Below are positions 5,838-52,284 of a DNA stretch of 64,000 bases, in pieces. Within the stretch, counting starts at the first letter, position 1. Each line of letters opens with the position of its first letter. The translations under genes and the position numbers were made by a program. This stretch comes from Terriglobales bacterium. GTDB lineage: Bacteria; Acidobacteriota; Aminicenantia; Aminicenantales; Saccharicenantaceae. Where the stretch lies: contig DATKJS010000009.1 in the NCBI GenBank assembly GCA_035543515.1, positions 21,324-85,323 of the forward strand, written 5' to 3'. The notes under the pieces are model-generated. The model was not told the DNA's origin and ran no database searches. It was given only the letters and a program-made list of their open reading frames with translations.

Positions 5838-5921
5838 GTCACCCGGCTGTTTATTTATGCCATCCGGCGGGCGGAGTCAATCTCCCCGCGGTCGGCCGGG
5901 GCGCGGCGCGGCCGCGGCGGC

Positions 5922-7025: not shown

Positions 7026-7173
7026 CGCGTCGCTCTCTCCTTCCTGAGGGTCGCGCGCCCGACGGCCGCCGCGCGGACCTCCATTATTCAAGTATCGGCG
7101 CGGGATGTCAATTCCCAGCCGCCGGGCGGGCGTTTGACCGGTCCCCATGTTGTATGGTAAGACCATCCTCGCC

Positions 7174-8346: not shown

Positions 8347-8358
8347 AGGGGAGACGCG

Positions 8359-8853
8359 TCAGTCCGAGAACTCCCTGAACAGCCGCAAGAGGGCCTCTTT
8401 GTCCATGGCCCCGACGTTGCGGTACCGGATCCGGCCCTTTGCATCGATGATGATCGTCGCTGGGACGAATCCGCCGGGCTTGAAGGCGGCGACGATCTCC
8501 CGCGTGGCCAGGGCGACGGGGTAGTTGACGCCGACGGTTTCGACCCAGTCCCGGAGGTCCTGCGGCGGCAGCGTGTCGACCGAGAGGCCGAGGATCTCGA
8601 GCCCGCGGCCCCTCAGCTCCTTGTAGGCGGAGACGAAATCCGGGATCTCCTCCCGGCACGGCGCGCACCATGTCGCCCAGAAGTTCAGGACGAGAACCTT
8701 GCCCTTGTAGTCGGCGAGCGAGACCGTCCGGCCGCGGAGGTCCTTGACCGTGAACTCGGGCGCCGGCTCCGCCCCGTTCTGGCTCCGGCTCGGGGTGCAG
8801 CCGAAGGCCAGGAGGACGGCCCCGACGGCCGCCATCGAGGCGAGCCGTCTCAA
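8359..8853 (-). CDS. TlpA/ResA-like thiol:disulfide oxidoreductase, probable lipoprotein
   Basis: Lipobox-like LLAFGC and thioredoxin-fold active site WATWCAPC. The TTG start overlaps the stop of the upstream beta-subunit gene (alternative ATG at 8835). Confidence 0.8.
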   Translation of the reverse strand: MRRLASMAAVGAVLLAFGCTPSRSQNGAEPAPEFTVKDLRGRTVSLADYKGKVLVLNFWATWCAPCREEIPDFVSAYKELRGRGLEILGLSVDTLPPQDLRDWVETVGVNYPVALATREIVAAFKPGGFVPATIIIDAKGRIRYRNVGAMDKEALLRLFREFSD

Positions 8854-9761
8854 GCGCCCCCCGCGCTCTTCAGCAGCCGCTCCCAGCGCTCGTCGACCTC
8901 GGCCTGGATGACCGCGACCTGTTCGGGCTTCAGGTGACGGAACCGCCCCTGGAGGCGGAGATAGTCGTCAACCGGCTTCTTGTCCTTGAGCTTCAGGTTG
9001 ATCGTGACCTTGTCCCCGTTCTCGATCTCGCAGAGCGGAAAATAGGCGTTCTGCACGGCCATCCGGGCCAGTTTGACGGTGTCGTCCGGCCGGCTTTTCC
9101 AGCCCGTCGGGCACGGCGCGTAGACGTGGAAGAAGCGCGTTCCCCTGATGGCCTTGGCCTTGGTCATCTTCCTGACGAAGTCCTCCGGGTGCGAGACGCT
9201 GGCCGTGGCGATGTACGGGATGCGGTGCGCGGCCATGATGGCCACGATGTCCTTCTTCGGCCGGGTCTTGAAGTGCTTGACCGGAGTCGTGGTCGTCCAG
9301 GCGCCGTAGGGCGTCGCCGAGGAGCGCTGGATGCCCGTATTCATGTAGGCTTCGTTGTCGTAGCAGACGTAAATGATGTCCTCGTTCCGCTCGGCCGCCC
9401 CGGACAGGGCCTGGATGCCGATGTCGAAGGTCCCGCCGTCCCCGGCCCAGGCGACGACCGTCGTCTCCTTGTCGCCCGTCATCTCCAGCCCGGCCTTGAC
9501 CCCCGTCGCCGTGGAGGCGGCCGTTTCAAAGGCGCAATGGTAGATGGGGACGTCGAGCGAGGAGTAGGGATAGGGCCCGTCGATGACGGCCCAGCAGCAG
9601 GCCGGGATGCAGAGGACGGTCTTCTGACCCAGCGCCTTCAGCATGTAGCGCATGGCCAGGGTCGCCCCGCAGCCCTGACAGGCCAAGTGGCCGCAGGCCA
9701 TCAGCTCGTCGGCCGGCAGCGTCATCGTGAACTTCTTCTCTTTCTTCGCTTCTTGGCTCAT
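8850..9761 (-). CDS. 2-oxoacid:ferredoxin oxidoreductase, beta (TPP-binding) subunit (PorB/VorA-like)
   Basis: GDGG TPP motif (WAGDGGTFDIG) and N-terminal Cys cluster (CQGCG). It overlaps the alpha-subunit stop by 4 nt. Confidence 0.85.
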   Translation of the reverse strand: MSQEAKKEKKFTMTLPADELMACGHLACQGCGATLAMRYMLKALGQKTVLCIPACCWAVIDGPYPYSSLDVPIYHCAFETAASTATGVKAGLEMTGDKETTVVAWAGDGGTFDIGIQALSGAAERNEDIIYVCYDNEAYMNTGIQRSSATPYGAWTTTTPVKHFKTRPKKDIVAIMAAHRIPYIATASVSHPEDFVRKMTKAKAIRGTRFFHVYAPCPTGWKSRPDDTVKLARMAVQNAYFPLCEIENGDKVTINLKLKDKKPVDDYLRLQGRFRHLKPEQVAVIQAEVDERWERLLKSAGGA

Positions 9762-10912
9762 TTCTTGACTCCGATCCAGACGATCTCCTCGTCGGCCCTA
9801 TCCTTGGCCAGGGCGTCCGCCGCGACCTCCTTGAACGACTCCGTGGTGATGTCGCGCCCGCCCAGCCCGGCGATGTAGCCGAAGAGCGGCGGCATGCCCG
9901 GCCGGCCGTAGACGGCGGACTTGACCTCCTGGTAGAAGATGCCGCCCGCGCCGTAGGAGCAGTTCCGGTCGACGACGGCCGCCTTCTTGGCCTTGGCGAG
10001 GACCTCGCGGACCCGGTCGAAGGGGAACGGCCGGAAGGCCTTGATGCGGACGTTCCCCGCCTTGACGCCGGAGCGGCGGAGCTCGTCCACTGCGACCCGG
10101 GCGGTGTAACCGGCCGTGCCCGAAGTGACGAACAGGAAATCGGCATCGTCCGACCGATAGGCGTCGATGAGGCCGAGGTCGCGCCCGAAGAGCCGGCCGT
10201 ACTCGCGGCCGGTCTCCTCGATGAGGGCCGGGGCCTTCTCCATGTCCTTCTCGAGCCGGTAGCGGAGCTCCATGTAGTGCTCCGACCCGGTCAGGCCGCC
10301 GAAGGCCCGAGGGTCGGCGGGGGTCAACCTGATGGCGGGCTTGAAGGGCGGCAGGTACTTGTCGACCAGGGCCTGGTCCGGGACGTCGACGACCTCGTAG
10401 GTGTGCGAGAGGGCGAAGGCGTCGAGGATGACCATGGCCGGGATCATCAGCGTCTCGGCGACCTTGAAGGCTTGGATGACCGTGTCCACGACCTCCTGGT
10501 TCGAGGCGCAGTAGAACTGCATCCAGCCCGTGTCGCGCTCGGACAGACTGTCGTTCTGGTCGGTCCAGATCGACCAGCCCGGGGCCATGGACCGGTTAAT
10601 GTTGCCCATGACGACGGGGTGGCGCCCGCCGGCGGCCCAGTGGAGCATCTCGTGCATGAGGGCCAGGCCCTGGGCCGAGGTCGCGGTGAAGGTCCGCGCC
10701 CCGGCGACCGAGGCGCCGATGCAGGAGGCCATGGCCGAGTGCTCGGACTCGACCTTGATGAACTGGGCGTCGAGGGTCCCGTCGGCGCACATCTCCGAGA
10801 GGAGCTCGACGACCTGGGTCTGCGGCGTGATGGGGTAGGCGGAGATGACCTGGGCCCGGGAGAGCATGGCGCCGTAGGACAGCGCGTGGTTGCCCATGAT
10901 GACTTTTTTCAT
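9758..10912 (-). CDS. 2-oxoacid:ferredoxin oxidoreductase, alpha subunit (PorA/VorB-like)
   Basis: MKKVIMGNHALSYGAMLSRAQVISAYPITPQT is the typical alpha-subunit N-terminus. Start set to ATG 10912, which overlaps the delta stop (ATGA); the longer ORF to 11068 overlaps the delta gene. Confidence 0.85.
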   Translation of the reverse strand: MKKVIMGNHALSYGAMLSRAQVISAYPITPQTQVVELLSEMCADGTLDAQFIKVESEHSAMASCIGASVAGARTFTATSAQGLALMHEMLHWAAGGRHPVVMGNINRSMAPGWSIWTDQNDSLSERDTGWMQFYCASNQEVVDTVIQAFKVAETLMIPAMVILDAFALSHTYEVVDVPDQALVDKYLPPFKPAIRLTPADPRAFGGLTGSEHYMELRYRLEKDMEKAPALIEETGREYGRLFGRDLGLIDAYRSDDADFLFVTSGTAGYTARVAVDELRRSGVKAGNVRIKAFRPFPFDRVREVLAKAKKAAVVDRNCSYGAGGIFYQEVKSAVYGRPGMPPLFGYIAGLGGRDITTESFKEVAADALAKDRADEEIVWIGVKK

Positions 10913-34036: not shown

Positions 34037-34845
34037 ACCCGTCCGCGGCCGTCTCCGTCGACGGACTGGTCAAGCGCTACCCGGTCTTCGGCGGCTTTCG
34101 GGACCTCGCCCGCCATCCGTTCAGGCGACCGACCCGGGCCGCCCTCGACGGGGTCAGCCTCGAGGTCGGGCCGGGCCGCGCCTTCTGCCTGCTCGGACCG
34201 AACGGCGCCGGCAAGACGACCCTGATCAAGGTCCTGACGACCCTTGTCCTGCCCGACGGAGGGCGGGCCTTCGTCGCCGGCCACGACGTCGAGCGGTCGC
34301 CGGCCGCGGTCAAGCGGGCCGTCGGCTACGCCATCAACGACGAGCGGAGCTTCTACTGGCGGCTGACCGGGCGTCAGAACCTTGAGTTCTTCGGCGCCCT
34401 GGCCGGGCTCGGCGGCCGCCGTCGGGACGAAAGGGTCGCCGGCGTGCTCTGCCTGACCGGCCTCGAGTCCGCCGCCGACGTCAGGTTCAACGCCTATTCC
34501 ACGGGCATGCGGCAGATGCTGTCCATCGCTCGGGCCCTGCTCGCCGACGCCGCCATCCTCTTTGTCGACGAGCCGACCCGCTCGCTCGACCCGAAGGCCG
34601 CGGCCGCCGTCCGGGCGTTCCTGAGGCGCGAGCTCGTCGACGCCCGGAAGAAGACCGTCTTCTGGGCCACCCACGACCTGGCCGAGGCGGCCGAGTTCGG
34701 CCACGAGGCGGCCGTTATCGACCGCGGCCGGATTATGGCCCGCGGCCCGGTCGACCGGCTGACCGAGGGCGGGCGCCTCTCCCTAAGGCAAGTCTACGAC
34801 CGGGCCTTGGCGGCCGCGGGGGCGGAGGGGGAGGCCGGCTCATGA
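34033..34845 (+). CDS. ABC transporter ATP-binding protein
   Basis: Walker A GPNGAGKTT, signature YSTGMRQML, Walker B ILFVDEPTRSLD, H-loop ATHDL. ATGA overlap with the upstream gene. Confidence 0.9.
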   Translation: MNPSAAVSVDGLVKRYPVFGGFRDLARHPFRRPTRAALDGVSLEVGPGRAFCLLGPNGAGKTTLIKVLTTLVLPDGGRAFVAGHDVERSPAAVKRAVGYAINDERSFYWRLTGRQNLEFFGALAGLGGRRRDERVAGVLCLTGLESAADVRFNAYSTGMRQMLSIARALLADAAILFVDEPTRSLDPKAAAAVRAFLRRELVDARKKTVFWATHDLAEAAEFGHEAAVIDRGRIMARGPVDRLTEGGRLSLRQVYDRALAAAGAEGEAGS

Positions 34846-42578: not shown

Positions 42579-44603
42579 TCAATCGGCGGCCACGCCCTTG
42601 CGCCGGTGCTGGAGGATGTAATCCTCGAGCGCCCGGATCTCCCCCGTGGTCAGGTCCCGGAACTTCAGCCCCGAATAGAAGAAGGGCGGACCGCCTTCCC
42701 GCCGGTCCGAGTAGATGACGTCGCCGCGGAGGAGGCCCGCCTTCTCGCCGAGGACGAGGATCATGTCCACCGTCTTGGCCAGCGGCAGCTTCGAGTCCGA
42801 GACGACCCTGGCCCCGCCGAGGCTGATGTTGACCGTCTTGGCGACGGTGAAGCTGCCGTCCTCTCGGACCAGGGCCACGGCCGACGCGTTCGTGCGCTCG
42901 AACTTCCGCCGCTCCCGGCCCGGCCGCTCGGCCGCGGCCGGCGCCTCCGGCCTCGCGGCCTCGCCGGCCCGGCCCGCGTGGAAGGTCGTGACTCGGTTCT
43001 TGACCAGGTCGGCCTCGGCCCCCCGCCGCCCCTCGAGCCCGGCCCGGCGCTTGCCCTTGGCCTCGGCCATGGCCAGGTCCGCCTCCGCCGCCAGCTGCTT
43101 CAGGTCGGAGCGGGTCATGGCCGCGAGGGGCTCCTCCCTGGGCTTGGGGTAGACGGTGACGCCGAAGGACATGGTCAGGTTGTTCTGCGGCTGGAACTCC
43201 TGGAACTCGAAAAAATGGTCCTCGACGTTCTTGCGGATGCGGTCGGTCAGGGCCACGGCGTCCTCGGGCCCCTTGACCCCGCTCAGGCAGAAGAGGAACT
43301 CCTCGCCCCCGTAGCGGCAGAGGAGGTCTTCCTCGCGGATCGAGAGCTTGAGGACGTGGGCCAGCTCGCGGAGCAGCCGGTTGCCGGCCTCGTGGCCGTT
43401 GCGGTCGTTGTAGGCTTTGAACCAGTCGACGTCGCCCATGACGATGGCCAGCCCGCCCTCCTCGGTGCGCCGCTTGCCCAGGGCGTTGACCTTCTGGAGG
43501 ACCTTCTCGAAGAAAGGCTCGGGCCGGAGGAGGCCGGTCAGGGCATCGTACTGGATGAGATTGAGCTTCAGCATGGCGATGGCCATGTGTTCCGACAGGC
43601 CCTGGAGGATCTGCTGGTCCTCGCGGCTGAAGCCCTCCGGGCTCGACTTGCCCTGGACGATCTTGTTGTAGACCTCGACGACGCCGATGACCTTGCGGTC
43701 GTGCATGATGGGCACGGCCAGGAGGCTCTTCAGCGGCGAGCGGAGGTATTCCGCGTACCGCTTGGTCAGGCGGCGGTCGAAGGCCAGGTCGGTCGTGTTG
43801 ATCCCCTGGCCGTAGCGGGCGACGGTGGCGGCGAAGTCCTGGGCGTCCCACAGGGCGATGTACTTGGAGAACTCGGCGTGGGAGAGGTACGCGTTGTCCC
43901 AGACGAGCGGCTTGAGGTAGCGGCCGAGGACTTCGTTCGTCTCGATGATGTAGACCGTGGCGCTCGAGGCCCGGACAATGTCGCGGAGGTCGGGGACGAG
44001 GTCGAGGAGGCTGCTGACGTCGTCGGAGGCGTAGATCTTGCGGAGGATCGTCTCGACCCGCTGGCGCTCCTTCTGGAACCAGACGTACTTGGTCTCGATG
44101 GCGATCCGCTTCTCGATCTCGGAGAGAAAGTTGGCGTTGATGAGGCCCTTGATCTCCTGGATCTCCGCGTAGACGTCCCGGACCTTTGTCTCCTGCTGGG
44201 CGAGGGAGCGGCGGAGGTCCTCCGCCTCGGCCTTCAGCCGGGCGTGCTCGACGGCCCGCTCGAGGGAGCGGAGGAGGAAGCGGTCCCGGGGATCGCCGGG
44301 GGGGGCGACGAACGGGTCGACGTAGAAGGCGGGCGGCCACTCCTCGGCGGCCCGGCGGAGGGCGGCCTCGTCGGGGCCGGTGAGGATGACGGCCGTGGAC
44401 GGCCCGAGGACGTCCCGGATGTCGGCGTAGCGGACGAGCCCGGCCTCGATGACGGCCGCGGCCACGGACACCCCGGCCAGGCGCGAGGCGAGGTCCGCCG
44501 CGGCCGTCCCGGCCGTGACCGGCCCGAACATCGAGGCCAGCCGCGACAGGCGGTCGACCTCGGCGGGCGATGGGTGCAGAATGAGGATGTGTCTCTGGCT
44601 CAT
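42579..44603 (-). CDS. Diguanylate cyclase: pseudo-receiver + coiled coil + GAF + GGDEF (GGEEF) + C-terminal PilZ domain
   Basis: RYGGEEFLF active site and the PilZ motifs RRKFERTNA .. NISLGGARV at the C-terminus. The N-terminal ILILHP receiver-like fold lacks the acidic pocket. Start set to ATG 44603. Confidence 0.85.
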
Positions 44604-44752
44604 GGGCCGGCCGCTTCCCTCGAACGATGGAGGAACCCGATCGTTCTTCCCCTGTCCTTGAAACCTTGGCTCCGTCGCGGGTCGGACTCGAAAGCGAACC
44701 CCGGGGCGGGCCGCCCTCCGCTGACCCGCCCCTAAATTACAATACGGCCGGG

Positions 44753-44773
44753 CCCCCGTCAAGGGGGATTTTT
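44753..44773 (+). terminator. Terminator-like hairpin CCCCC-gtcaa-GGGGG followed by ATTTTT
   Basis: Read directly. There is no upstream plus-strand CDS to terminate, and the stem is only 5 bp. Confidence 0.25.
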
Positions 44774-44812
44774 GACCCTGGCCTCTTATCTTCTTTCGTG
44801 CCGAAGCCGCTC

Positions 44813-44842
44813 TTGGCCCGCCCGGGGGCGATATGGTATATT
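44813..44842 (+). promoter_or_regulatory. Possible hutU promoter (TTGGCC-N18-TGgTATATT, extended -10)
   Basis: Read directly. It lies about 50 nt upstream of the GAGGAGGA RBS and ATG 44894. Confidence 0.4.
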
Positions 44843-44893
44843 CGGAATGGCCGGACGCCGTCCGCACGACGCCCGCCGGCGAGGAGGACCGAC

Positions 44894-46564
44894 ATGGCCC
44901 CGTCAGCACAGACACCCGTCACCGGCATCCGCGCTCCCAGGGGCTCCCGCCTGCGCACCAAGGGCTGGTCGCAGGAGGGGGCGCTGCGCATGCTCATGAA
45001 CAACCTCGACCCGGCCGTGGCCGAGAAGCCGCAGGAGCTCATCGTTTACGGCGGGACCGGCAAGGCCGCCAGGAACTGGGAGTGCTACCGGGCCATCGTG
45101 GCCAGCCTGAAGAAGCTCGAGAACGACGAGACCCTCCTCGTCCAATCCGGCAAGCCCGTGGCCGTGTTCCGGACCCACGCCGAGGCGCCGCGCGTCCTCA
45201 TTTCCAACGCCATGCTCGTCCCCAAGTGGGCGACCTGGGACGAGTTCCGGCGCCTGGAGGCGCTCGGGCTGACGATGTACGGGCAGATGACCGCGGGCAG
45301 CTGGATCTATATCGGGACCCAGGGCATCCTCCAGGGGACCTACGAGACGCTGGCCGCCGCGGCCCGGCGCCATTTCGGCGGCTCCCTCAGGGGAAAGCTC
45401 GTCCTGACGGCCGGCCTCGGCGGCATGGGCGGGGCTCAGCCGCTGGCCGTGACCATGAACGACGGCGTGGCCATCGTCGTCGAAGTCGACCCGGACCGCA
45501 TCCGGCGCCGGCTCGAAACGAGATACGTCGACACCATGACCGGCAGCCTCGACGAAGCCCTGCGGCTGGCGGGCGAGGCCAAGCGCAAGGGCGAGCCGCT
45601 CTCGGTCGCCCTCTTGGGCAACGCCGCCGACGTCCTGCCCGAGTTCGTCCGCCGCGGCCTCGTCCCCGATGTCCTGACCGACCAGACCTCGGCCCACGAC
45701 GAGCTCAACGGCTACGTGCCGAACGGCCTGCCCTACGAGGAGGCCGTCCGGTTGCGGCGGGACGACCCGGCCGATTACATCCGCCGCTCCTTCCAGGCCA
45801 TGGCCGCCCACGTCGAGGCCATGCTGGAGCTGAGGCGGAGGGGGGCGCGGGCCTTCGACTACGGCAACAACATCCGCGGCCAGGCTCAGAAGGCCGGCGT
45901 CCGCGACGCTTTCGACATCCCCGGTTTCGTGCCTGAGTACATCCGCCCCCTGTTCTGCGTGGGCAAGGGACCCTTCCGCTGGGCCGCGCTGTCCGGGAAG
46001 CCTTCGGACATCTACGCCACCGACGAGGCCGTGCTGCGGGAGTTTCCCGAGGACGAGGGGCTGGCGCGTTGGATCCGGAAGGCCCGGAGCGGCTTCAAGT
46101 TCCAGGGGCTGCCGGCCCGCATCTGCTGGCTCGGCTACGGCGAGCGGGCCCGCTTCGGCGCGGTCATCAACCACCTCGTCCGCAAGGGAAGGATCAGTGC
46201 GCCCGTCGTCATCGGCCGCGACCACCTCGACACAGGCTCCGTGGCCTCGCCGAACCGCGAGACCGAGGGGATGCGCGACGGCTCCGACGCCATCGCCGAC
46301 TGGCCCATCCTCAACGCCCTCCTCAACGCCGTGAGCGGCGCCTCGTGGGTCTCCGTCCACCACGGCGGCGGCGTCGGCATCGGGCTGTCCATCCACGCCG
46401 GGATGGTCATCGTAGCGGACGGCACCCCGGCCATGGGCCGGCGCCTCGAGCGCGTCCTGACCGTCGACCCCGGACTGGGCGTCGCCCGGCACGCCGACGC
46501 CGGCTATCCCGAGGCCGTCGCCTGCGCCCGGGAGAAGGGGATCAAGGTCCCGCTCCTCAAGTAA
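44894..46564 (+). CDS. hutU: Urocanate hydratase
   Basis: [54 protein letters not shown] and a full-length match to the HutU pattern, 556 aa. Confidence 0.95.
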
Positions 46565-46679
46565 CGGCCACAGGGCCCGGCCGAGCCGGGCCGAGCGCCC
46601 GGCGGCCGCGCCCGCCGTGTCACGTTTTGTGCCGCGGCGCGCCCCGCATCCCTCTGACCTTGAAGAAGATGCGCCGGGG

Positions 46680-46696
46680 CGGCACAAACTGTGCCG
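46680..46696. promoter_or_regulatory. Perfect palindrome CGGCACA-aac-TGTGCCG, candidate enhancer-binding-protein site (UAS)
   Basis: About 100-115 bp upstream of the sigma-54 -24 element. The half-site TGTGCCGCG recurs at 46628-46636 (62 bp upstream). Confidence 0.5.
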
Positions 46697-46792
46697 CGCC
46701 GGGCCCGATTTGCCGTTCTTATCCGTCTCGCGGCCTGTCATTAATATATTTATAATCAACACCATATAACCAATGGGGGCTGGGCCTCGCCC

Positions 46793-46808
46793 TGGCACGC
46801 GCCTTGCA
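46793..46808 (+). promoter_or_regulatory. Sigma-54 (RpoN) promoter, TGGCACG-N4-TTGCA
   Basis: CTGGCACGcgccTTGCA matches every conserved position of the -24/-12 consensus YTGGCACG-N4-TTGCW. The -12 element ends 26 nt before ATG 46835, with an AAGGAG RBS in between. Confidence 0.75.
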
Positions 46809-46834
46809 AGAAGGAAGGCCGAAAGGAGCCGCCG

Positions 46835-47053
46835 ATGAAAAAAACATGCCTGTGGGCCCTGGTCGGGCTCATCCTCTTTTCCTCAGTCCTTCTCTTCCCT
46901 CTCTCGGTCCGCGCCCGTGACGTGAACGAGTGCTATCGCAACCACCAAGCGTGCCGCGAAAGGGCGCTGGCCATGGATGGGGCCTGGACCAAGATCGCCA
47001 TTTACCTCACCGTCTGTGATGTGGCGCTCGGCAGATGCATCCTGATCGCCTAG
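46835..47053 (+). CDS. Secreted 72-aa mini-protein with twin Cx6C motifs
   Basis: Good RBS and a signal peptide (MKKTCLWALVGLILFSSVLLFPLSVRA). The 45-aa mature part has C33-x6-C40 and C61-x6-C68. It is visibly less GC-rich than its neighbours. Confidence 0.55.
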   Translation: MKKTCLWALVGLILFSSVLLFPLSVRARDVNECYRNHQACRERALAMDGAWTKIAIYLTVCDVALGRCILIA

Positions 47054-47124
47054 AAGCGACGAGCGGAGGGCCCTCCACGGCGGAGGGCCCTCTCTCTCCG
47101 CCGGTGCGCGAGGAGGGCGCGGCC

Positions 47125-48120
47125 ATGGGACCGATCTTGAGGCAGGCCATCGTCTACCTGGCCCTGACGTCCGGCATCCCGCCGGCCGCGGCCATCACCC
47201 CGGCCGACGCGCCGGTCCGGCGGCTGGCGGCCGAGGACGTGACCAGCCGGGACGCACGTCCCGACGAGGCCTGGCTCGGCTTGGCCGCCGCCCTGGCCTA
47301 TGACGCCGAGCGTGTTTACGCCGTCGACGCCGAGGACTGCGCGGTCAAGGTCTTCACCAAGTCCGGCCGGTTCGAGGCCGTCATCGGCCGGAGCGGGCAC
47401 GGGCCCGGCGAGTTCTCGTTCCCTTCGGGCGTGGCCGTCCTCGGCGGCCGGCTGTTCGTTGCCGACAAGCTCAACCGGCGCATCCAGGTCCTCGACCTGT
47501 CCGGGCGGTTCCTGCGGAGCTTCGCCCTGCCCTTCGCGCCCGACAGGGTCCTCGTCCTGGCCGCCGACCGGCTCGTCGTCACGCGGCGTCCCTCCGGCCG
47601 CCCGGCCGGCGAGAGGATCCTCCACTTTCTCAGCGCCTCGGGTGAGCCGCTGCGCGAGGAGCTCGTCGCGCGCACCGGCGGCGACCCCGTCCTCGACGCC
47701 TTCCTCAACATGGTCCTCGTCAGCCCGGGGCCGCGGGGGGACCTCTTCGTCATCTTCAAGTGCCAGGAAAGGGCGGTCCTCCATTACGGGCCCGACGGCG
47801 GCCTCGCCGGCCGCGTCCCGGTCGACCGCCGCTACGGCTCCAAGGCCGTGTCCCTGCCGGTCCGCGGCGGGCGGAGGACGGTCGAGGCCTTCTGCTGGGA
47901 GAGCGCCCAGGACCGGGGACGGATCTTCCTCCTCGCGCCCGAGTATACGGACGGCGGGGACATCGGGCCCGGGGACAGGGTCTACGTCATCGACACGGCC
48001 GGCCGCCTCGAAGCCAGGATCGAGCTGCCGGCCCGCGTTTCGCGCCTGGCCGTCGAGGGCGACAGGATCTTCGCCGTCGACCTCGCCGGCGAGCTCCGGG
48101 TGTTCCGGGTGGCGCGATGA
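47125..48120 (+). CDS. NHL-repeat / six-bladed beta-propeller protein, signal-anchored
   Basis: GHGPGEFSFPSGVAVLGGRLFVADKLNRRIQVLDLSGRFLRSF is a classic NHL repeat, with further degenerate blades. Start ATG 47125 behind GAGGAGGG. Confidence 0.7.
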   Translation: MGPILRQAIVYLALTSGIPPAAAITPADAPVRRLAAEDVTSRDARPDEAWLGLAAALAYDAERVYAVDAEDCAVKVFTKSGRFEAVIGRSGHGPGEFSFPSGVAVLGGRLFVADKLNRRIQVLDLSGRFLRSFALPFAPDRVLVLAADRLVVTRRPSGRPAGERILHFLSASGEPLREELVARTGGDPVLDAFLNMVLVSPGPRGDLFVIFKCQERAVLHYGPDGGLAGRVPVDRRYGSKAVSLPVRGGRRTVEAFCWESAQDRGRIFLLAPEYTDGGDIGPGDRVYVIDTAGRLEARIELPARVSRLAVEGDRIFAVDLAGELRVFRVAR

Positions 48121-48584
48121 GCGTGCGGGGAGCGGCGCTCATCCTCCTGGCCGTCTCCGTGGCTGGGACGGCCTCCTGGCCGGCCGGGATCGAGGTCCGG
48201 CTCTGCCGGACGCTCGAAGAGGCCGCGCCGCCCGGCGCCGGCGCCGCGCTTCTCGTCTTCTTCTCGACGGAATGCCCGGTCTGCTACGACGGGCTCTTCG
48301 AATCGCGCCGCCTCGTCGAGAAGGGCGGCTGGCCGGTGCGGGTGGTCGGCGTCGCCTCCGGCCCGGCGGACTCGGTCCGCTCCTTCCTCGAAAAATTCGG
48401 CTGGACGCAGCCTGTCGTTCACGACCGACGAAGGTCCCTGGCCCGGAGGTTCCGCGTCGACTTCGTCCCCGACTGGGTCCTCCTCGTCGGGGGAGAGCCG
48501 GTCTGCCGGAGCGATCCGCGGGCCGGCCCCGTCCGAGGCATGGAGGGCCTCGCCGCATGCTTAAAACGAACGTTTTCCCGCTGA
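48117..48584 (+). CDS. Secreted thioredoxin-fold (redoxin/TlpA-like) protein, CPVC active site
   Basis: Signal peptide, then LLVFFSTECPVCYDGL.., VRVVGVA.., FGWTQPVVHD.., VPDWVLLVGG. ATGA overlap with the NHL gene. Confidence 0.7.
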   Translation: MSVRGAALILLAVSVAGTASWPAGIEVRLCRTLEEAAPPGAGAALLVFFSTECPVCYDGLFESRRLVEKGGWPVRVVGVASGPADSVRSFLEKFGWTQPVVHDRRRSLARRFRVDFVPDWVLLVGGEPVCRSDPRAGPVRGMEGLAACLKRTFSR

Positions 48585-49291
48585 CGGCGCGCCTGGCCGG
48601 CCTGAGGCTGCGCTCCTCGCGGCTGGTCCCGGCCGTGGCCGCCGCCCTGCCGGTCTTCCTCCTCGGCCTAGGCCTGAAGGAGTCGCCGGCGACGGCCTTG
48701 AAGGTCTTCCTCCTCTTCTTTCCCTACATTTTCCTCCTCGCTTCGCAGGACATGTCCGCGTCGGAAACGCAGGGCGGCGGGCTCGAGAACGTCCTCTTCC
48801 TCGACGGCCGGTTCCGGACCTATCTCTGGCAGAAGAACCTCGTCCTGGCCGCCGCCGGCGGCGTCTACGCATGCGCGGTCTTCGTCGGGCTCGCCGCGTG
48901 GCATCTCGGCCGCGGCACGTTCGAGCCCGCCTCCGTCCTCCAGCTCGGCCTGGGGCTCCTCGCCGGCGCCTATTACGTCGCCGTGGCCGGGGCGCTGGGC
49001 TTCGTCCTCAGGGCGGGCTCCAACGTCGTCGTCCTCCTCCTCGCCCAGGCCGCGGCCCTCATCGGTCTCATCCTCTCGACGACCCTCCGCACCGGGTTCA
49101 TCGACCACCTCGCCTCCGGGCGATTCCCCGGCTTCGGCTCGAAGCTCCTCTTCGCCGGCCTGGCGGCCGTCTTCCCCAACCTCATCGTCGCGCGCCGGCT
49201 TTCCCGCGGCGGCGCCGTCGTCCTGGCCGGGCTCGTCCTGGCCTTGCTCGTCCAGCGGGCCCGCCTGCGGCGGCTCGAGCTCACGAAATAG
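48557..49291 (+). CDS. Polytopic membrane protein (about 6 TM), probable permease partner of the downstream ABC ATPase
   Basis: Hydrophobic spans throughout. The only in-frame ATG is 48557, giving a 28-nt overlap with the upstream gene. Confidence 0.55.
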   Translation: MLKTNVFPLTARLAGLRLRSSRLVPAVAAALPVFLLGLGLKESPATALKVFLLFFPYIFLLASQDMSASETQGGGLENVLFLDGRFRTYLWQKNLVLAAAGGVYACAVFVGLAAWHLGRGTFEPASVLQLGLGLLAGAYYVAVAGALGFVLRAGSNVVVLLLAQAAALIGLILSTTLRTGFIDHLASGRFPGFGSKLLFAGLAAVFPNLIVARRLSRGGAVVLAGLVLALLVQRARLRRLELTK

Positions 49292-49301
49292 GAAGGCGGA
49301 G

Positions 49302-49997
49302 ATGCTGCGCGCCGACGGACTCTGGAAAAGCTATGGGCCCGTCCGGGCCTTGCGGGGGGTCGGCTTCTCGCTCGAGAGGGGTCGCGTCACGGCCCTCCTC
49401 GGCGAGAACGGGGCGGGCAAGACGACAACGCTGCGGGTCGTCCTCGGCATCCTCGCCCCGGACGCCGGCGCGGTCGAGCGCGAGGCCGGACGCGTCGGCT
49501 ACGTCCCCGACCAGCCGGCCTTCTTCCCATGGCTCCGCGGCCGGGACGTCCTCGACCTGACAAGGCGCTCGGCCGGGGCGGGGCGGGAGGAGTGGGGGGC
49601 GCGGGTCCGGGACCTCGCGGCGGCCCTCCGCTTCGACGCCGCGCTCCTCGACCGGCCGCCGCGGACCTATTCGGCCGGGAACGCCAAAAAACTCGCCTTC
49701 CTCCAGAGCCTGGCCCTGGAGCCGGACCTCCTCGTCGCCGACGAGCCGTTCGCGGCCCTCGACCCGCCCTCCGTCAAGCGGGCGCGCGACCTCCTCATCG
49801 GGGCGAGGGACCGCGGCGCCGCCGTCCTCCTGAGCTCCCACATGCTGGCCGAGATGACCCGGGTGAGCGACGATTTCATCGTCCTGCGGCACGGAAAGGT
49901 CGCCGCCCGGTCCGGCCTCGCGGAGTTCCTGGAGCGGGCCCGGCCGGCCTCGGCCGGGGAGGTCGAGGCGGCCTTCCTGGGCCTGATCCAGGGCTGA
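49302..49997 (+). CDS. ABC transporter ATP-binding protein
   Basis: Walker A GENGAGKTT, signature YSAGNAKKL, Walker B LLVADEPFAALD, H-loop SSHML. Confidence 0.85.
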   Translation: MLRADGLWKSYGPVRALRGVGFSLERGRVTALLGENGAGKTTTLRVVLGILAPDAGAVEREAGRVGYVPDQPAFFPWLRGRDVLDLTRRSAGAGREEWGARVRDLAAALRFDAALLDRPPRTYSAGNAKKLAFLQSLALEPDLLVADEPFAALDPPSVKRARDLLIGARDRGAAVLLSSHMLAEMTRVSDDFIVLRHGKVAARSGLAEFLERARPASAGEVEAAFLGLIQG

Positions 49998-50013
49998 GAC
50001 GGCGGGCCGCAGG

Positions 50014-52284
50014 TCACTTGGCCGCTGCGAGTTCCTCGATGGCCGCGGCCACCCTGGCCCGGTAGTCGAGCAGGACGCGGGGGTCCTTGGTGTACGCCTT
50101 CCCCGAGCTGAAGATCGAGCCCGGGATATCGAGCAGCGCGGCGGCCCGGCGCGCCGCCTTGGGCGCCCGCGACGCGGCGGCGGCGACGGCCTTCTCGAGG
50201 AGCTTGAAATACTCGTAGTCCTCGATGCCCTCCCGGAGGACCTCCCAGCGGATGGAGTTGACCGGCCCCGTCAGATGCTTCGACGTGTCCTTTCCCGGCG
50301 CCCGGTTCGGCGGGTAGAGGAACCGGCCGTCGCCGTTCCCCCAATAGTTGACCTGGCCGTACGGGACGCCGTAGCCGACCGTGTAGGACATCGGGTCCTG
50401 CCAGGGGTTCTGGAGGGCGCCGGCGGGGAAGACGGTCGGGCTCGACCAGTAATTGGCGCGCCAGACGAGGATCCCCTGGAGGCCCCACTTGTAGGACATC
50501 CACAGCCACATCCGCAGGTTGATGGCCGGGTGGTCGATGAAGAGCGTCACCCACGGACCCTTGGGCCCCGTGCAGAGGTAGGACCAGAACTGGCGCCCCT
50601 GCGGCCGGAGCCGGGCCACGGCGGCCGGGTCGACCCGGTCGAAGATCGTGCAGCCGATCTCGGAGACGTCCATGATGTCCGGGCCCGGCCGGTGCTCGGT
50701 GATGAACCGGGTCAGCTTGGACGCGTTCCTGCGGATGTTAAGCATCCCTTCGCGCACGAACGGGTAGTCCTTCGGGTCCGGCTCGTCGAACCAGTAGACG
50801 TATTCCTTGCCCAGCCAGCCGTTGGCCGCGAGGTGCTCCTGGACCTGGCCGAGGTGCATGCTGAGAAGGCGGTCGTATTCGGCCGTGCCCTGGCGGAAGC
50901 CGCCGAACAGCCCCTCTTGGCGGGAATAGAATGAGCCCGAGCCGATGCCCTTGACCGAAAGGTCGAAGGCGTTGAAGCCGAATTCGTCGAGCAGCAGGCG
51001 GGCCCCGCGGTCGAATTCCGTGAAATCCGTCTCGACCGACATCGCCTCGGCCGGCATCTCGAAGTCGCCGCCGGGCACGAGGTTCGGGCCGCCCGCGGCG
51101 GCGGCAAGAGAGACGTCGTCGAACCAGGCTGCGCCCGTGGCCGTGCCCGCCTCGTCGCGGAAGGTCGGGAAGAGGCGGATGACGACGGACCGGACCTCCG
51201 GCGGATAGGCCGGCACGTCCAGGCGCCCCTCCTTCCAATCGGCCGTCCCCTTGAAGACCTGCACTTGGTTGAGGCGATGGATGGGCTCTCCGCGGCCGTC
51301 GAGGGGCTGGAGGAAGACCGTACCGTCCTGGCCGTCCTTCTCCGTCCGCGCCCACCACGACAGCCGGTAGGGGACGCCGGCGGCGACGGGGATGGGCTCG
51401 GCGCTGCGGGCCTCGACCGCCTCGGCCGGGCTGTCGTCGACGACCCGGAGCGCGCGGCGGCCGGAGTGGACCGGCGCCGTCACGAACTCGCCGCCCCGCC
51501 AGGGGATGCCCCCGAAGCGGACGTCGATCGGGTAGAGCTCGGCGAACGAAGTCGGGGCGACACGATGGGCGCGGAAGTTCTCGAGGTAGAGCCGGTAGAC
51601 CTTCTCCAGCTCCTCCCGCGTCGTCAGGTTGTGGTAGGCCTTGATGTCCGAGACGACGAGGCCGAACGAGGAGCGGATGCTGGGCGTCGCCGGCAGGGTG
51701 AAATCCCAGACGTGGAGGCGGACGGGGACGGCGATGGGCGACGGCCAGTCTTCGGAAGAGAGGGCGACCGAGCCGCGATAATCCCCGGCCCGCGCCGTCG
51801 GCGGAACGTAGACCGTGATCCAGAGAGCCGAGTTCTCGCCGGCCGGCGCGGCGAACGGGCCGTCGTAGGGCGGCAGGGGGTCCGGCCAATCGCCGGCGGC
51901 GCCGTAGGCGTCCGTGGGCAGGTTGACGTGGACATAGGCGACGCGCGCGACGGTGACGTTCGTGACGGCGATCTCCGCCCCCGATTCCTGGCGGAGCGGG
52001 CCCGCCTCGACCCGGACATTGGCCGTGGCCTTCGCGGGGACGAGGACGACCTGGAAGGGCTCGTACTCGTTCCGCGCCGCGCGAATGACGACGGCGTCCG
52101 ACCTCCCGAGCGGCAGGGGGTCGGTCTTGCGGACCTTGGTCGCTCCGGGCGCCCACCAGACCGCGAAGAGCGGGCTGCGGGTGATGAGGAGCCCGTCCGT
52201 CCCCGCCCCCGCGCCCGAGGCCCGGGGGCCGGGGAGGAGCAGGGCCGCCGCCAGGATGATCATGACCAGGAGTTCGCGTTTCAT
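50014..52284 (-). CDS. Secreted DUF4091-type glycoside hydrolase-like protein
   Basis: Signal peptide. The C-terminal region WVTLFIDHPAINLRMWLWMSYKWGLQGILVW .. NGDGRFLYPP .. SIRWEVLREGIEDYEYFKLL matches the DUF4091 pattern as I remember it. Confidence 0.6.
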   Translation of the reverse strand: MKRELLVMIILAAALLLPGPRASGAGAGTDGLLITRSPLFAVWWAPGATKVRKTDPLPLGRSDAVVIRAARNEYEPFQVVLVPAKATANVRVEAGPLRQESGAEIAVTNVTVARVAYVHVNLPTDAYGAAGDWPDPLPPYDGPFAAPAGENSALWITVYVPPTARAGDYRGSVALSSEDWPSPIAVPVRLHVWDFTLPATPSIRSSFGLVVSDIKAYHNLTTREELEKVYRLYLENFRAHRVAPTSFAELYPIDVRFGGIPWRGGEFVTAPVHSGRRALRVVDDSPAEAVEARSAEPIPVAAGVPYRLSWWARTEKDGQDGTVFLQPLDGRGEPIHRLNQVQVFKGTADWKEGRLDVPAYPPEVRSVVIRLFPTFRDEAGTATGAAWFDDVSLAAAAGGPNLVPGGDFEMPAEAMSVETDFTEFDRGARLLLDEFGFNAFDLSVKGIGSGSFYSRQEGLFGGFRQGTAEYDRLLSMHLGQVQEHLAANGWLGKEYVYWFDEPDPKDYPFVREGMLNIRRNASKLTRFITEHRPGPDIMDVSEIGCTIFDRVDPAAVARLRPQGRQFWSYLCTGPKGPWVTLFIDHPAINLRMWLWMSYKWGLQGILVWRANYWSSPTVFPAGALQNPWQDPMSYTVGYGVPYGQVNYWGNGDGRFLYPPNRAPGKDTSKHLTGPVNSIRWEVLREGIEDYEYFKLLEKAVAAAASRAPKAARRAAALLDIPGSIFSSGKAYTKDPRVLLDYRARVAAAIEELAAAK

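What the first reader, a model, noticed from the sequence alone, without database searches (positions are those of the whole stretch)
46835..49997. Five-gene cassette with no named equivalent: twin-Cx6C secreted mini-protein + NHL propeller + CPVC thioredoxin-fold protein + 6-TM protein + ABC ATPase
Five co-directional genes are tightly packed: an ATGA overlap at 48117, a 28-nt overlap at 48557 and a 10-nt gap before 49302.
- Gene 1 encodes a 72-aa pre-protein. It has a signal peptide (cleavage predicted after VRA27) and a 45-aa mature part with C33-x6-C40 and C61-x6-C68. This spacing would let two disulfides staple a helical hairpin. Its DNA is visibly less GC-rich than the flanks.
- Gene 2 is a signal-anchored six-bladed NHL propeller.
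- Gene 3 is a secreted thioredoxin-fold protein (CPVC) that could oxidise or isomerise gene 1.
- Genes 4-5 are a permease-then-ATPase ABC pair.

I know of no described system with this composition. From memory, small-peptide plus beta-propeller pairs exist in Bacteroidota (NVEALA neighbourhoods), but that motif is absent here. Candidate roles are a disulfide-stapled signal, toxin or bacteriocin-like peptide with its own maturation, export or immunity genes.
Basis: partly seen in the sequence, partly recalled or inferred. Interest (0 to 1): 0.75.

Follow-up and report, generated by a model that had tools for sequence, protein, structure and literature searches.

The report
Sigma-54 operon for exported four-cysteine mini-protein
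A real, conserved and so far undescribed operon of the uncultured Aminicenantes bacteria: it makes a small exported four-cysteine helical-hairpin protein together with a propeller protein and a thiol-redox enzyme, usually also a transporter, and its function is still unknown.

Summary
All five genes exist at the stated coordinates, with the stated overlaps. The 72-aa mini-ORF is a genuine gene. It has a conserved RBS, dN/dS of about 0.15-0.3, four invariant Cys with fixed spacing, and a confident AlphaFold helix-loop-helix model.

An exhaustive HMM search of 1.84 billion proteins found only 24 clusters of this mini-protein. No member matches any Pfam family. Every relative that carries a taxonomic name is labelled Aminicenantes, Acidobacteriota or, in two MAGs, Eubacteriales.

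In about 30 related loci (35-72% GC), mini-protein, NHL/DUF5128 propeller and TlpA/ResA-like CxxC redoxin always occur together in this order. This trio is the core. The ABC-2 permease (nearest fold NosY, then PmtD) and its ATPase are present in most lineages but missing in at least two.

Two features are new here:
- A canonical sigma-54 promoter, with two upstream palindromes and an IHF-like site, precedes the mini-gene.
- A conserved GC-rich hairpin follows the mini-gene's stop codon, which implies the peptide is made in excess.

No described system matches. The function is inferred, not shown. The most likely reading is an inducible envelope module in which the redoxin acts on the peptide's cysteines, the propeller is the scaffold, and the transporter is an accessory.

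The parts
46619..46633 (+). Upstream palindrome 1 (GTCACGTTTTGTGCC), a candidate enhancer-binding-protein site
   Evidence: It fits the pattern GkCAC-N5-GTGmC and lies at -216 from the g1 ATG. A site at the same position occurs in L003-L006, L009, L015, L018 and L023.
46681..46695 (+). Upstream palindrome 2 (GGCACAAACTGTGCC, a perfect palindrome), a candidate enhancer-binding-protein site
   Evidence: It lies at -154 from the ATG. The position is conserved in L003-L007 and L009.
46754..46766 (+). IHF-like site (AATCAACACCATA) inside an AT-rich stretch
   Evidence: It lies at about -80 from the ATG in 10 of 19 loci. The ATCA core is invariant in alignment A7. This is a consensus match only.
46793..46808 (+). 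Sigma-54 (-24/-12) promoter, TGGCACGCGCCTTGCA
   Evidence: It is the only match to TGGCAY-N5-TTGCW in the 64 kb window, against 0.02 expected. The motif, or its CGGCAC variant, sits at -39 to -43 from the ATG in 36 of 43 locus entries checked (35 of 41 once the two duplicate entries L016 and L024 are dropped).
46821..46828 (+). Ribosome-binding site GAAAGGAG of g1
   Evidence: It is invariant in alignment A7 and present in all loci, including those with 35% GC.
46835..47053 (+). g1: 72-aa pre-protein with a Sec signal peptide and a 45-aa twin-Cx6C helix-loop-helix
   Evidence: pLDDT is above 95 over residues 31-70. Four Cys plus T59 and D62 are invariant. Helix 1 is polar and helix 2 is hydrophobic.
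47065..47093 (+). GC-rich 12-bp hairpin, 12 nt after the g1 stop codon (attenuator, terminator or stabiliser)
   Evidence: Three of its pairs show compensatory changes. A comparable hairpin is present in 15 of 16 and in 20 of 22 further loci, including genomes of 35-42% GC. Several of these are followed by U-runs.
47125..48120 (+). g2: exported six-bladed NHL/DUF5128 beta-propeller
   Evidence: A GAGGAGG ribosome-binding site lies upstream.
48117..48584 (+). g3: exported TlpA/ResA-like thioredoxin-fold protein (CPVC)
   Evidence: C53, C56 and the cis-Pro P118 are invariant.
48557..49291 (+). g4: ABC-2 (type V) six-helix permease, an accessory gene
   Evidence: The best fold matches are NosY at TM 0.62 and PmtD at TM 0.56. 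One orthologue gives a weak ABC2_membrane_5 hit.
49302..49997 (+). g5: ABC ATPase (DrrA-like), an accessory gene

Best explanation
This is a sigma-54-dependent, inducible envelope operon of the Aminicenantes.

**Proposed sequence of events**
1. An unidentified enhancer-binding protein acts from two upstream palindromes and switches on a -24/-12 promoter.
2. The first gene is made in excess, because a conserved hairpin follows it. It encodes a Sec-exported peptide of about 45 residues that folds into a helix-loop-helix, with two cysteines per helix on facing sides.
3. The co-translated periplasmic pair works together on those four cysteines. The TlpA/ResA-like CxxC protein (g3) carries out thiol-disulfide exchange, most likely forming or editing the C33-C68 and C40-C61 staples. 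The NHL propeller (g2) holds the hydrophobic second helix. This is the same domain pair that is fused in NHLRC2 and SOQ1.
4. The hydrophobic hairpin then stays bound to the propeller or in the membrane.
5. The ABC-2 pump (g4/g5), coupled to g3 by a 28-nt overlap, handles or expels the peptide, or energises the complex. It is dispensable, because some lineages lack it.

**Shown**
- Gene reality, folds and motifs.
- The fixed order of the trio across relatives.
- The promoter and hairpin motifs and their conservation.

**Inferred**
- Which protein touches which.
- The direction of the redox step.
- The disulfide pattern.
- The role of the pump and the inducing signal.
For: **Trio always together.** g1, g2 and g3 occur in the same order in every locus with enough flanking sequence. 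This covers about 30 non-identical loci, 35-72% GC, g1 identity down to about 31%, and two different chromosomal neighbourhoods.

**Cysteine pattern.** The only cysteines conserved across the whole module are the four in g1 and the CxxC of g3. The g2 cysteines are not conserved.

**g1 structure and constraint.**
- The AlphaFold model is a confident hairpin.
- The C1-C4 span is 36 residues in 23 of 24 members.
- g1 is the most constrained of the three genes tested, g1, g3 and g5.
- Helix 2 has mean Kyte-Doolittle hydropathy +1.45 and a low hydrophobic moment, so it needs a partner or the membrane.

**Link between g2 and g3.** The g2 profile hits the NHL domains of the Trx-NHL fusion proteins NHLRC2 and SOQ1. 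Papers on these describe disulfide-exchange or Msr-type chemistry. The ATGA overlap and the 28-nt overlap are conserved.

**Regulation.** Sigma-54 promoter, upstream sites and IHF-like site. Hairpin after g1, with compensatory changes.

**g4 fold.** ABC-2 type, nearest NosY and PmtD.
Against: - No physical or expression data exist, and no multimer model could be run.
- g3 is not specifically the NHLRC2/SOQ1 type of thioredoxin domain. Its nearest solved relatives are ResA and StoA, which are reductants.
- In the AlphaFold secondary structure the loop (residues 46-50) is not centred on the symmetry point of the Cys pattern (50.5). The two-staple register is therefore not proven.
- In the window's clade, helix 2 is hydrophobic enough (Kyte-Doolittle 2.0) to be a transmembrane segment.
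- Co-occurrence is largely vertical inheritance within one class, so it counts as few independent events.
- No enhancer-binding protein is encoded in the window.
- Three trio-only low-GC lineages lack the sigma-54 motif.
Confidence: 0.4

Rival explanations
1. Metal or sulfur handling. The four Cys of g1 stay reduced and bind a thiophilic metal (Cu, Zn or similar) or carry sulfur. g3 would be the TlpA-like reductant that keeps them reduced, as TlpA does for ScoI and CoxB. The NosFY-like ABC-2 complex and the propeller would form a periplasmic delivery or detoxification machine analogous to NosDFYL.
For: - The nearest solved relatives of g3 are reductive TDORs.
- The best fold match of g4 is NosY of NosDFY.
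- Beside the Cys, g1 has an invariant Asp62 and a near-invariant His37 within the close family.
- Sigma-54 control is known for metal-stress periplasmic proteins such as ZraP (general knowledge).
Against: - His37 is not conserved in distant members.
- The g2 propeller has no invariant His or Cys that could hold a metal site.
- NosD, NosL, NosZ or other metalloprotein genes are not adjacent in any locus.
- The ABC pair is dispensable.
- The TM-scores for NosY (0.62) and PmtD (0.56) are too close to discriminate.
Confidence: 0.15
2. Sec-dependent bacteriocin, toxin or surfactant-like membrane-active peptide. g3 would be the dedicated disulfide-forming helper, like PedC for pediocin or BdbA/B for sublancin. 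The ABC-2 pump would provide self-immunity or expulsion, like LanFEG or PmtCD.
For: - g1 is a small exported hydrophobic Cys peptide and the first gene of the operon.
- It is followed by a hairpin, the classic layout of a structural-peptide gene.
- An ABC-2 pump of the PmtD fold class is present.
- General knowledge of the pediocin and sublancin operons supports the analogy.
Against: - The locus is single-copy, vertically inherited and at the same chromosomal slot in most sampled relatives.
- dN/dS is 0.15-0.3, with no hypervariability.
- The mature peptides are neutral to anionic.
- There is no double-glycine leader, C39 peptidase or immunity-protein gene.
- Lineages that lack the pump still keep the peptide.
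- A propeller is not part of known bacteriocin operons.
Confidence: 0.15
3. g1 is a small single-pass (type I) membrane protein. After signal-peptide cleavage, helix 2 would span the membrane and helix 1 would lie in the periplasm. It would act as a subunit or regulator of the propeller/redoxin/ABC complex, not as a free hairpin.
For: - Helix 2 has Kyte-Doolittle hydropathy of about 2.0 in the window's clade and a very low hydrophobic moment.
- The invariant polar stripe T59-D62-G66 on an otherwise hydrophobic helix resembles a helix-helix contact surface.
Against: - AlphaFold packs helix 2 back onto helix 1 with pLDDT above 95.
- Mean hydropathy across the family is only 1.45, with some members at 0.75.
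- The helix ends at the C-terminus with no positively charged cytoplasmic tail, and often with an acidic tail.
- The symmetric Cx6C/Cx6C pattern with an invariant 36-residue span is hard to explain without inter-helix pairing.
Confidence: 0.15
4. There is no common function. The genes are neighbours only because of conserved synteny within one clade.
For: Most loci share the whole block GGDEF - hutU - cassette - glgC.
Against: - The trio stays intact when the neighbourhood changes (L019, L021, L047, L048).
- The trio also stays intact while GH123 and the ABC pair come and go.
- The overlapping start and stop codons are conserved.
- A single conserved promoter precedes g1, and no other promoter-like site was found inside the operon.
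Confidence: 0.03

Closest known systems
NHLRC2 (animals, bacteria) and SOQ1 (chloroplast lumen): fused thioredoxin-like + NHL propeller proteins
   Same: The same two domains work together in an extracytoplasmic-type compartment. The g2 profile hits their NHL domains. The literature on these proteins proposes disulfide exchange or Msr-type redox action on a small partner protein.
   Different: - Here the two domains are separate genes in the reverse order (NHL, then Trx).
- The g3 thioredoxin is ResA/TlpA-like with a CPxC motif, and its profile does not retrieve the NHLRC2 or SOQ1 chains among its PDB hits.
- A dedicated four-Cys mini-protein and an ABC-2 pump are attached.
- The NHLRC2 paper reports that bacterial NHLRC2 homologues are not in operons.
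NosDFY(L) ABC-2 complex of nitrous oxide reductase maturation
   Same: g4 has its best fold match in NosY (probability 1.0, TM about 0.6). Both are an ABC-2 permease plus ATPase encoded beside exported periplasmic partner proteins.
   Different: No NosD beta-helix, NosL or NosZ is present. Sequence similarity is only 19-22%. The ABC pair is dispensable here.
PmtCD and LanFEG-type ABC-2 pumps, which expel small amphipathic or hydrophobic peptides from the producer's membrane
   Same: The membrane domain belongs to the same fold class (PmtD TM 0.56). The pump is encoded beside a small hydrophobic helical peptide.
   Different: PSMs and lantibiotics are not Sec-exported Cys hairpins. No propeller or redoxin is involved in those systems. 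The peptide here is not cationic.
Bacteriocin operons with a dedicated thiol-disulfide helper (pediocin PedC; sublancin BdbA/BdbB). This comparison is from general knowledge.
   Same: A small Cys peptide gene is followed by its own thioredoxin-fold helper and an ABC transporter.
   Different: Those systems use double-glycine leaders and C39-peptidase ABC exporters, are patchy and mobile, and have no propeller. None of these features is met here.
Twin-CxnC helical hairpins: CHCH proteins (twin Cx9C, oxidised by Mia40) and plant alpha-hairpinins (twin Cx3C)
   Same: A helix-loop-helix with two Cys per helix in a symmetric pattern, placed in an oxidising compartment. A dedicated oxidoreductase is encoded for it. 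A walnut vicilin hairpin peptide superposes on the model (TM 0.82 relative to the target, not significant).
   Different: The spacing is Cx6C. There is no sequence relationship. It is bacterial and Sec-exported. The disulfides have not been demonstrated.
Bacteroidota DUF5128 propeller / NVEALA small-protein neighbourhoods.
   Same: g2 and its orthologues match Pfam DUF5128. In both cases a small exported protein of about 70-85 aa is encoded next to the propeller.
   Different: No member of the g1 family matches the NVEALA model. That neighbourhood is itself uncharacterised. The full-text library holds no paper containing either term.

Membership tests
NHL-repeat / DUF5128 six-bladed beta-propeller (PF01436, PF17170) | Score above the Pfam gathering threshold, and repeated NHL motifs across the length | tested here: met
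   DUF5128 scores 40.2 bits against a cutoff of 22.9. NHL scores 28.4 against 20. The orthologue profile hits the Thin and TRIM71 NHL domains at E=4e-52 to 1e-39, with 4-5 matched stretches.
Thioredoxin-fold TlpA/ResA-like thiol-disulfide oxidoreductase | CxxC active site, cis-Pro loop and an export signal | tested here: met
   AhpC-TSA scores 30.5 bits against a cutoff of 26. C53, C56 and P118 are invariant in 17 orthologues. The profile hits ResA and StoA at 1e-6.
Named equivalogs ResA / StoA / MauD / CcmG | Score above the NCBIfam equivalog cutoff | tested here: not met
   StoA scores 19 against 210, ResA 17 against 170 and MauD 12 against 189.
ABC-2 (type V) exporter | Six-helix membrane domain of the ABC-2 fold, encoded next to a DrrA-type ATPase with intact motifs | tested here: met
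   Foldseek returns NosY, PmtD, Wzm and ABCG as top hits, with probability up to 1.0 and TM 0.55-0.63. The ATPase Walker A (GENGAGKTT), Walker B (DEPF) and H-loop are conserved. The sequence models fail: no Pfam hit for the window protein, and only one orthologue gives a weak ABC2_membrane_5 hit.
NosDFY(L) system | NosD periplasmic beta-helix, NosL and NosZ in the cluster | tested here: not met
   None of these genes appears in the gene tables of any locus examined.
Methylamine dehydrogenase (mau) cluster | MauA light chain, MauB seven-bladed heavy chain, and MauD/MauE equivalogs | tested here: not met
   MauD scores 12.3 bits against a cutoff of 188.6. g1 has 4 Cys in 45 aa and no Pfam match. 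g4 is coupled to an ATPase and has the ABC-2 fold.
Class II bacteriocin / lantibiotic operon | Double-glycine or lanthipeptide leader, C39-peptidase ABC exporter or modification enzymes, and patchy, variable distribution | tested here: not met
   g1 has a Sec-type signal with an AxA cleavage site. g5 and g4 carry no peptidase domain. The locus is syntenic and single-copy. dN/dS is 0.15-0.3.
NVEALA small proteins (PF14055) | Match to the NVEALA model or motif | tested here: not met
   None of the 24 family members matches, even at E<=10.
NHLRC2/SOQ1 Trx-NHL proteins | Trx-like and NHL domains in one polypeptide, with that family's specific Trx-like domain | tested here: not met
   The domains are separate genes joined by an ATGA overlap. 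The g3 profile does not retrieve the NHLRC2 or SOQ1 chains at E<=0.01. Only the NHL part matches.
Sigma-54-dependent promoter | GG at -24 and GC at -12 in TGGCAC-N5-TTGCW, upstream activator sites, and a cognate enhancer-binding protein | tested here: inconclusive
   The motif and its spacing are met and conserved. Upstream palindromes and an IHF-like site are present. No GAFTGA activator is encoded in the window, and no transcription data exist.

The most novel reading that the evidence does not exclude
The trio would be a self-contained periplasmic oxidative-folding or redox-relay system for a twin-Cx6C hairpin. That would make it a bacterial counterpart of the Mia40/twin-CxnC logic. It would also be the first case in which the widespread but enigmatic thioredoxin-NHL module (NHLRC2, SOQ1) is encoded next to its natural small-protein client. 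The hairpin would act as a sigma-54-induced membrane or envelope effector, with the ABC-2 pump positioning or recycling it.
Probability: 0.2. Interest if true: 0.8.

Novelty: new variant of a known kind. Interest (0 to 1): 0.58.

Why it matters
Aminicenantes are abundant in anoxic sediments, peat and digesters but remain uncultured. A conserved, tightly regulated envelope operon specific to them points to lineage-defining physiology.

The mini-protein family is unnamed: 24 clusters among 1.84 billion representative proteins, with no Pfam match. It comes with clear, testable predictions:
- the transcription start site;
- a short, abundant transcript covering g1 only;
- the signal-peptide cleavage site;
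- the disulfide map;
- the binding partners.

If the redoxin-propeller pair really acts on the hairpin, it would provide a simple bacterial model for what thioredoxin-NHL proteins do. Those proteins include NHLRC2, which is linked to FINCA disease, and plant SOQ1.

Tried and rejected
**Searches that found nothing useful**
- Pfam and NCBIfam for g1 and g4 gave no family.
- PDB sequence searches for g1 and g4 gave nothing meaningful.
- Foldseek of the g1 model returned only generic helical hairpins, all with E>1.
- Rfam on 46400-50200 gave nothing above noise.
- The sigma-70 promoter scan found no site.
- A tblastn of g2 against plasmids returned only generic NHL-repeat matches covering 24% of the query.
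- Literature searches for NVEALA/DUF5128, for Aminicenantes with NHL, and for Cx6C hairpins returned nothing relevant.
- A GAFTGA scan found no enhancer-binding protein in the window.
- The window has no paralogue of g1-g4.

**A scan that had to be repeated**
It was repeated with a narrower alignment.

**Readings rejected**
- mau cluster, Nos system, NVEALA family and classical bacteriocin operon: see the membership tests.
- The apparent 227-aa g3 in L023: its extra 70 residues are low-complexity read-through that overlaps glgC.
- g2 starting at 47035: orthologues, the ribosome-binding site and the intervening hairpin all support 47125.

Full report
**1. Observation**

The window is about 70% GC.
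- g1: 46835-47053, 72 aa.
- g2: 47125-48120, 331 aa. The longer ORF from 47035 is not used by orthologues.
- g3: 48117-48584, ATGA overlap with g2.
- g4: 48557-49291, 28-nt overlap with g3.
- g5: 49302-49997, 10-nt gap after g4.

GC drops to 55-65% over g1 and its leader. g1 has a GAAAGGAG ribosome-binding site 6 nt upstream of the ATG, and g2 has GAGGAGG.

The flanking genes are:
- urocanase hutU, upstream on the + strand;
- a GH123-like glycosidase and glgC, downstream on the - strand;
- a GAF-GGDEF-PilZ gene, further upstream on the - strand.

**2. The parts**

*g2.* It matches DUF5128 and NHL above the Pfam thresholds. A profile of its orthologues hits solved NHL propellers: Thin at 4e-52, TRIM71, TRIM2/3 and Brat. 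It also hits the NHL domains of NHLRC2 and SOQ1, and weakly the peptidylglycine amidating lyase.

*g3.* It is a thioredoxin-fold protein (AhpC-TSA/Redoxin) whose nearest solved relatives are ResA and StoA. Across 17 orthologues its CxxC motif and cis-Pro are invariant, while the dipeptide inside the CxxC varies (PV, PS, AS, HV, HA, QV, AT).

*g4.* It has no sequence-level family. Its AlphaFold model (pLDDT 84, pTM 0.84) is an ABC-2/type V membrane domain. The best matches are NosY of NosDFY (probability 1.0, TM about 0.6), then PmtD, Wzm and ABCG.

*g5.* It is a DrrA-like ATPase with intact catalytic motifs.

**3. The mini-protein is real and new**

- A first search found 20 homologues at 67-89% identity.
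- An exhaustive HMM search of 1.84 billion representatives, using only the mature part, found 24 clusters. All are 68-129 aa with the match at the C-terminal end, and most are 70-76 aa.
- A profile search then found 65 proteins.
- Across the family only M1, C33, C40, T59, C61, D62 and C68 are invariant.
- The C1-C4 span is 36 residues in 23 of 24 members.
- The N-terminal 25-28 residues vary like a Sec signal peptide and end in an AxA-type site.
- dN/dS against 11 orthologues is 0.14-0.37 for the mature part. This is lower than for g3 (0.25-0.65) or g5 (0.34-0.72), with the caveat that dS is saturated.
- AlphaFold gives helix 2-45, loop 46-50 and helix 51-71, with pLDDT above 95 over residues 31-70.
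- No Pfam, PDB or fold relative exists.
- Helix 1 is polar (mean Kyte-Doolittle -1.0).
- Helix 2 is uniformly hydrophobic (mean +1.45, and 2.0 in the window) apart from an invariant T59-D62-G66 stripe.
- Mature peptides carry net charge -5 to +2.

A free, soluble, cationic peptide is therefore unlikely. The hairpin must bury helix 2 in a partner, an oligomer or the membrane. The two-staple disulfide pattern (33-68, 40-61) fits the symmetric Cx6C/Cx6C layout but was not verified.

**4. Co-occurrence**

*Species genomes.* Ten species-level MAGs carry the cassette. They are labelled Aminicenantes/Aminicenantales, Acidobacteriota or, in two cases, Eubacteriales. All carry g1-g5 in order between hutU and (GH123)/glgC.

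*Distant g4 homologues.* The most distant ones (40% identity) sit in the same context.

*More divergent g1 homologues.* Their contexts vary:
- L018, L020, L022, L025 and L026 have all five genes, in several cases with a longer ATPase and different downstream genes.
- L023/L024 have only g1-g3, in the same hutU-glgC slot.
- L019 and L021 (42% and 35% GC) have only g1-g3, in a different neighbourhood.

*Metagenome scan.* It added 22 loci. Wherever the contig reaches far enough, g1 is followed by g2 and g3. g4 and g5 are absent in L044, L047 and L048.

*Conclusion.* The invariant unit is the trio, and the ABC pair is a frequent accessory. Most of this is vertical inheritance within one class, so the number of independent events is small. 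The trio nevertheless stays intact through relocation, loss of the ABC pair, gain or loss of GH123, and a shift of GC from 35% to 72%.

The window's own g4 is identical to an NCBI MAG protein labelled 'Terriglobales bacterium'.

**5. Regulation (not in the original finding)**

Aligning the hutU-g1 spacers of nine loci shows an invariant TGGCA(C/T)-N5-TTGC block.

- *Promoter.* In the window it reads TGGCACGCGCCTTGCA at 46793-46808. This is the textbook sigma-54 -24/-12 consensus and the only such match in 64 kb, against 0.02 expected. The motif, or a CGGCAC variant, lies 39-43 nt upstream of the ATG in 36 of 43 locus entries checked (35 of 41 once the two duplicate entries L016 and L024 are dropped). 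It is missing in the low-GC trio-only lineages (L019, L021, L044, L047, L048). L013 and L015 (duplicate L016) have GGCAC-N5-TTGC with a C in place of the leading T.
- *Predicted start.* This places transcription initiation near 46819.
- *Upstream palindromes.* Two sites of the form GkCAC-N5-GTGmC sit at 46619-46633 and 46681-46695. Their positions (-216 and -154 from the ATG) recur in many loci.
- *IHF-like site.* An AT-rich stretch between the palindromes and the promoter carries an IHF-like site at 46754-46766.

Together these form the classical layout of enhancer sites, bend and -24/-12 promoter. No GAFTGA-type activator is encoded in the window.

**6. Hairpin after g1**

A 12-bp GC-rich stem-loop (47065-47093) lies 12 nt after the g1 stop codon. 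In the alignment of nine loci, three of its ten pairs show compensatory double changes. A comparable hairpin follows g1 in 15 of 16 and in 20 of 22 further loci. These include genomes of 35-42% GC, where a GGGCCCUC stem stands out. Several hairpins are followed by U-runs. The simplest reading is a leaky terminator or a stabiliser that makes g1 mRNA more abundant than g2-g5 mRNA. That would mean g1 is a product or client, not a 1:1 subunit.

**7. Mechanism**

*Shown:*
- a sigma-54-type promoter and a post-g1 hairpin, both conserved;
- an exported four-Cys helical hairpin;
- an exported NHL propeller;
- an exported CxxC thioredoxin;
- an optional ABC-2 transporter;
- overlapping reading frames from g2 to g4.

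*Inferred:* g3 acts on the g1 cysteines. These, together with the g3 CxxC, are the only cysteines conserved across the module. g2 is the binding platform. The Trx+NHL pairing recurs as a fusion in NHLRC2 and SOQ1, for which disulfide exchange or Msr-type activity on a small partner has been proposed. The pump handles the hydrophobic peptide or energises the complex.

I rate this at about 0.4. The rivals are:
- a reduced-Cys metal or sulfur carrier with a TlpA-like reductant and a Nos-like machine (0.15);
- a Sec-dependent membrane-active peptide with its own pump (0.15). This is weakened by the peptide charge, the selection pattern, the synteny, and lineages that have no pump;
- a single-pass membrane subunit (0.15);
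- mere synteny (0.03).

**8. Comparison and novelty**

Each protein fold is ordinary. The ensemble is not described in Pfam, NCBIfam, the PDB or the searchable literature. The membership tests for Nos, mau, NVEALA, bacteriocin operons and NHLRC2/SOQ1 all fail on at least one defining feature.

I file it as a new variant of a known kind: a small exported Cys peptide with a dedicated thiol-redox helper and an ABC transporter. Its distinguishing features are a new peptide family, a propeller partner and sigma-54 control. It is restricted to one uncultured class.

Interest is moderate to high (0.58). The operon is clean, conserved and experimentally tractable, but its function remains inferred.

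Noticed in passing
window 44627-46564 (+) and 42579-44915 (-): The mechanical ORFs of hutU (645 aa) and of the GAF-GGDEF-PilZ gene (778 aa) overlap head-to-head by about 290 nt. Orthologue alignments begin near residue 89 of hutU (a start near 44891, giving about 557 aa) and near residue 85-100 of the GGDEF protein. Both real starts are therefore probably internal, and the genes are divergent rather than overlapping.
   Followed up: partly
window 50014-52284 (-), compared with L008, L009, L011, L023 and L025: The GH123-like glycosidase between the cassette and glgC is present in some relatives and absent in others. The cassette and glgC stay in place. GH123 behaves as a variable insertion and is not part of the operon.
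   Followed up: partly
L002 (CAWDTC010000040.1) 5700-10400; L017 6471-7807: In these long-read MAG contigs hutU, g2, g3 and g4 are broken into several frames (L002), or g2 is not called at all (L017). These are most likely assembly indel errors rather than pseudogenes.
   Followed up: no
P0021; L007 and L011: The taxonomic labels are inconsistent. The window's identical g4 protein is deposited as 'Terriglobales bacterium'. Two syntenic MAGs are labelled 'uncultured Eubacteriales bacterium'. All other relatives are labelled Aminicenantes, Aminicenantales or Acidobacteriota. The synteny suggests these odd labels are wrong.
   Followed up: no
window 46607-46707: The two upstream palindromes are themselves part of a 29-nt imperfect inverted repeat (79% complementary, 43 nt apart) just after the hutU stop codon. 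It could alternatively, or additionally, fold as a hutU terminator structure.
   Followed up: partly
L019 15184-16109 and L021 7156-8076: In the two low-GC trio-only loci a cytoplasmic-type thioredoxin gene and a MarR-family regulator lie just downstream of the trio. A NIF3-like gene lies upstream. No sigma-54 motif is present, which suggests a different mode of regulation in that lineage.
   Followed up: no
L018 10006-10860, L020 10579-11460, L022 10561-11445, L026 10558-11436: In these lineages the ABC ATPase is 284-294 aa instead of 231 aa. It carries an extra C-terminal domain of about 60 residues of unknown role, and its start overlaps the end of the permease gene by 4 nt.
   Followed up: no
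window 34141-34776 (+): A second ABC ATPase is encoded in the window, 31% identical to g5. It is unrelated to the cassette.
   Followed up: no
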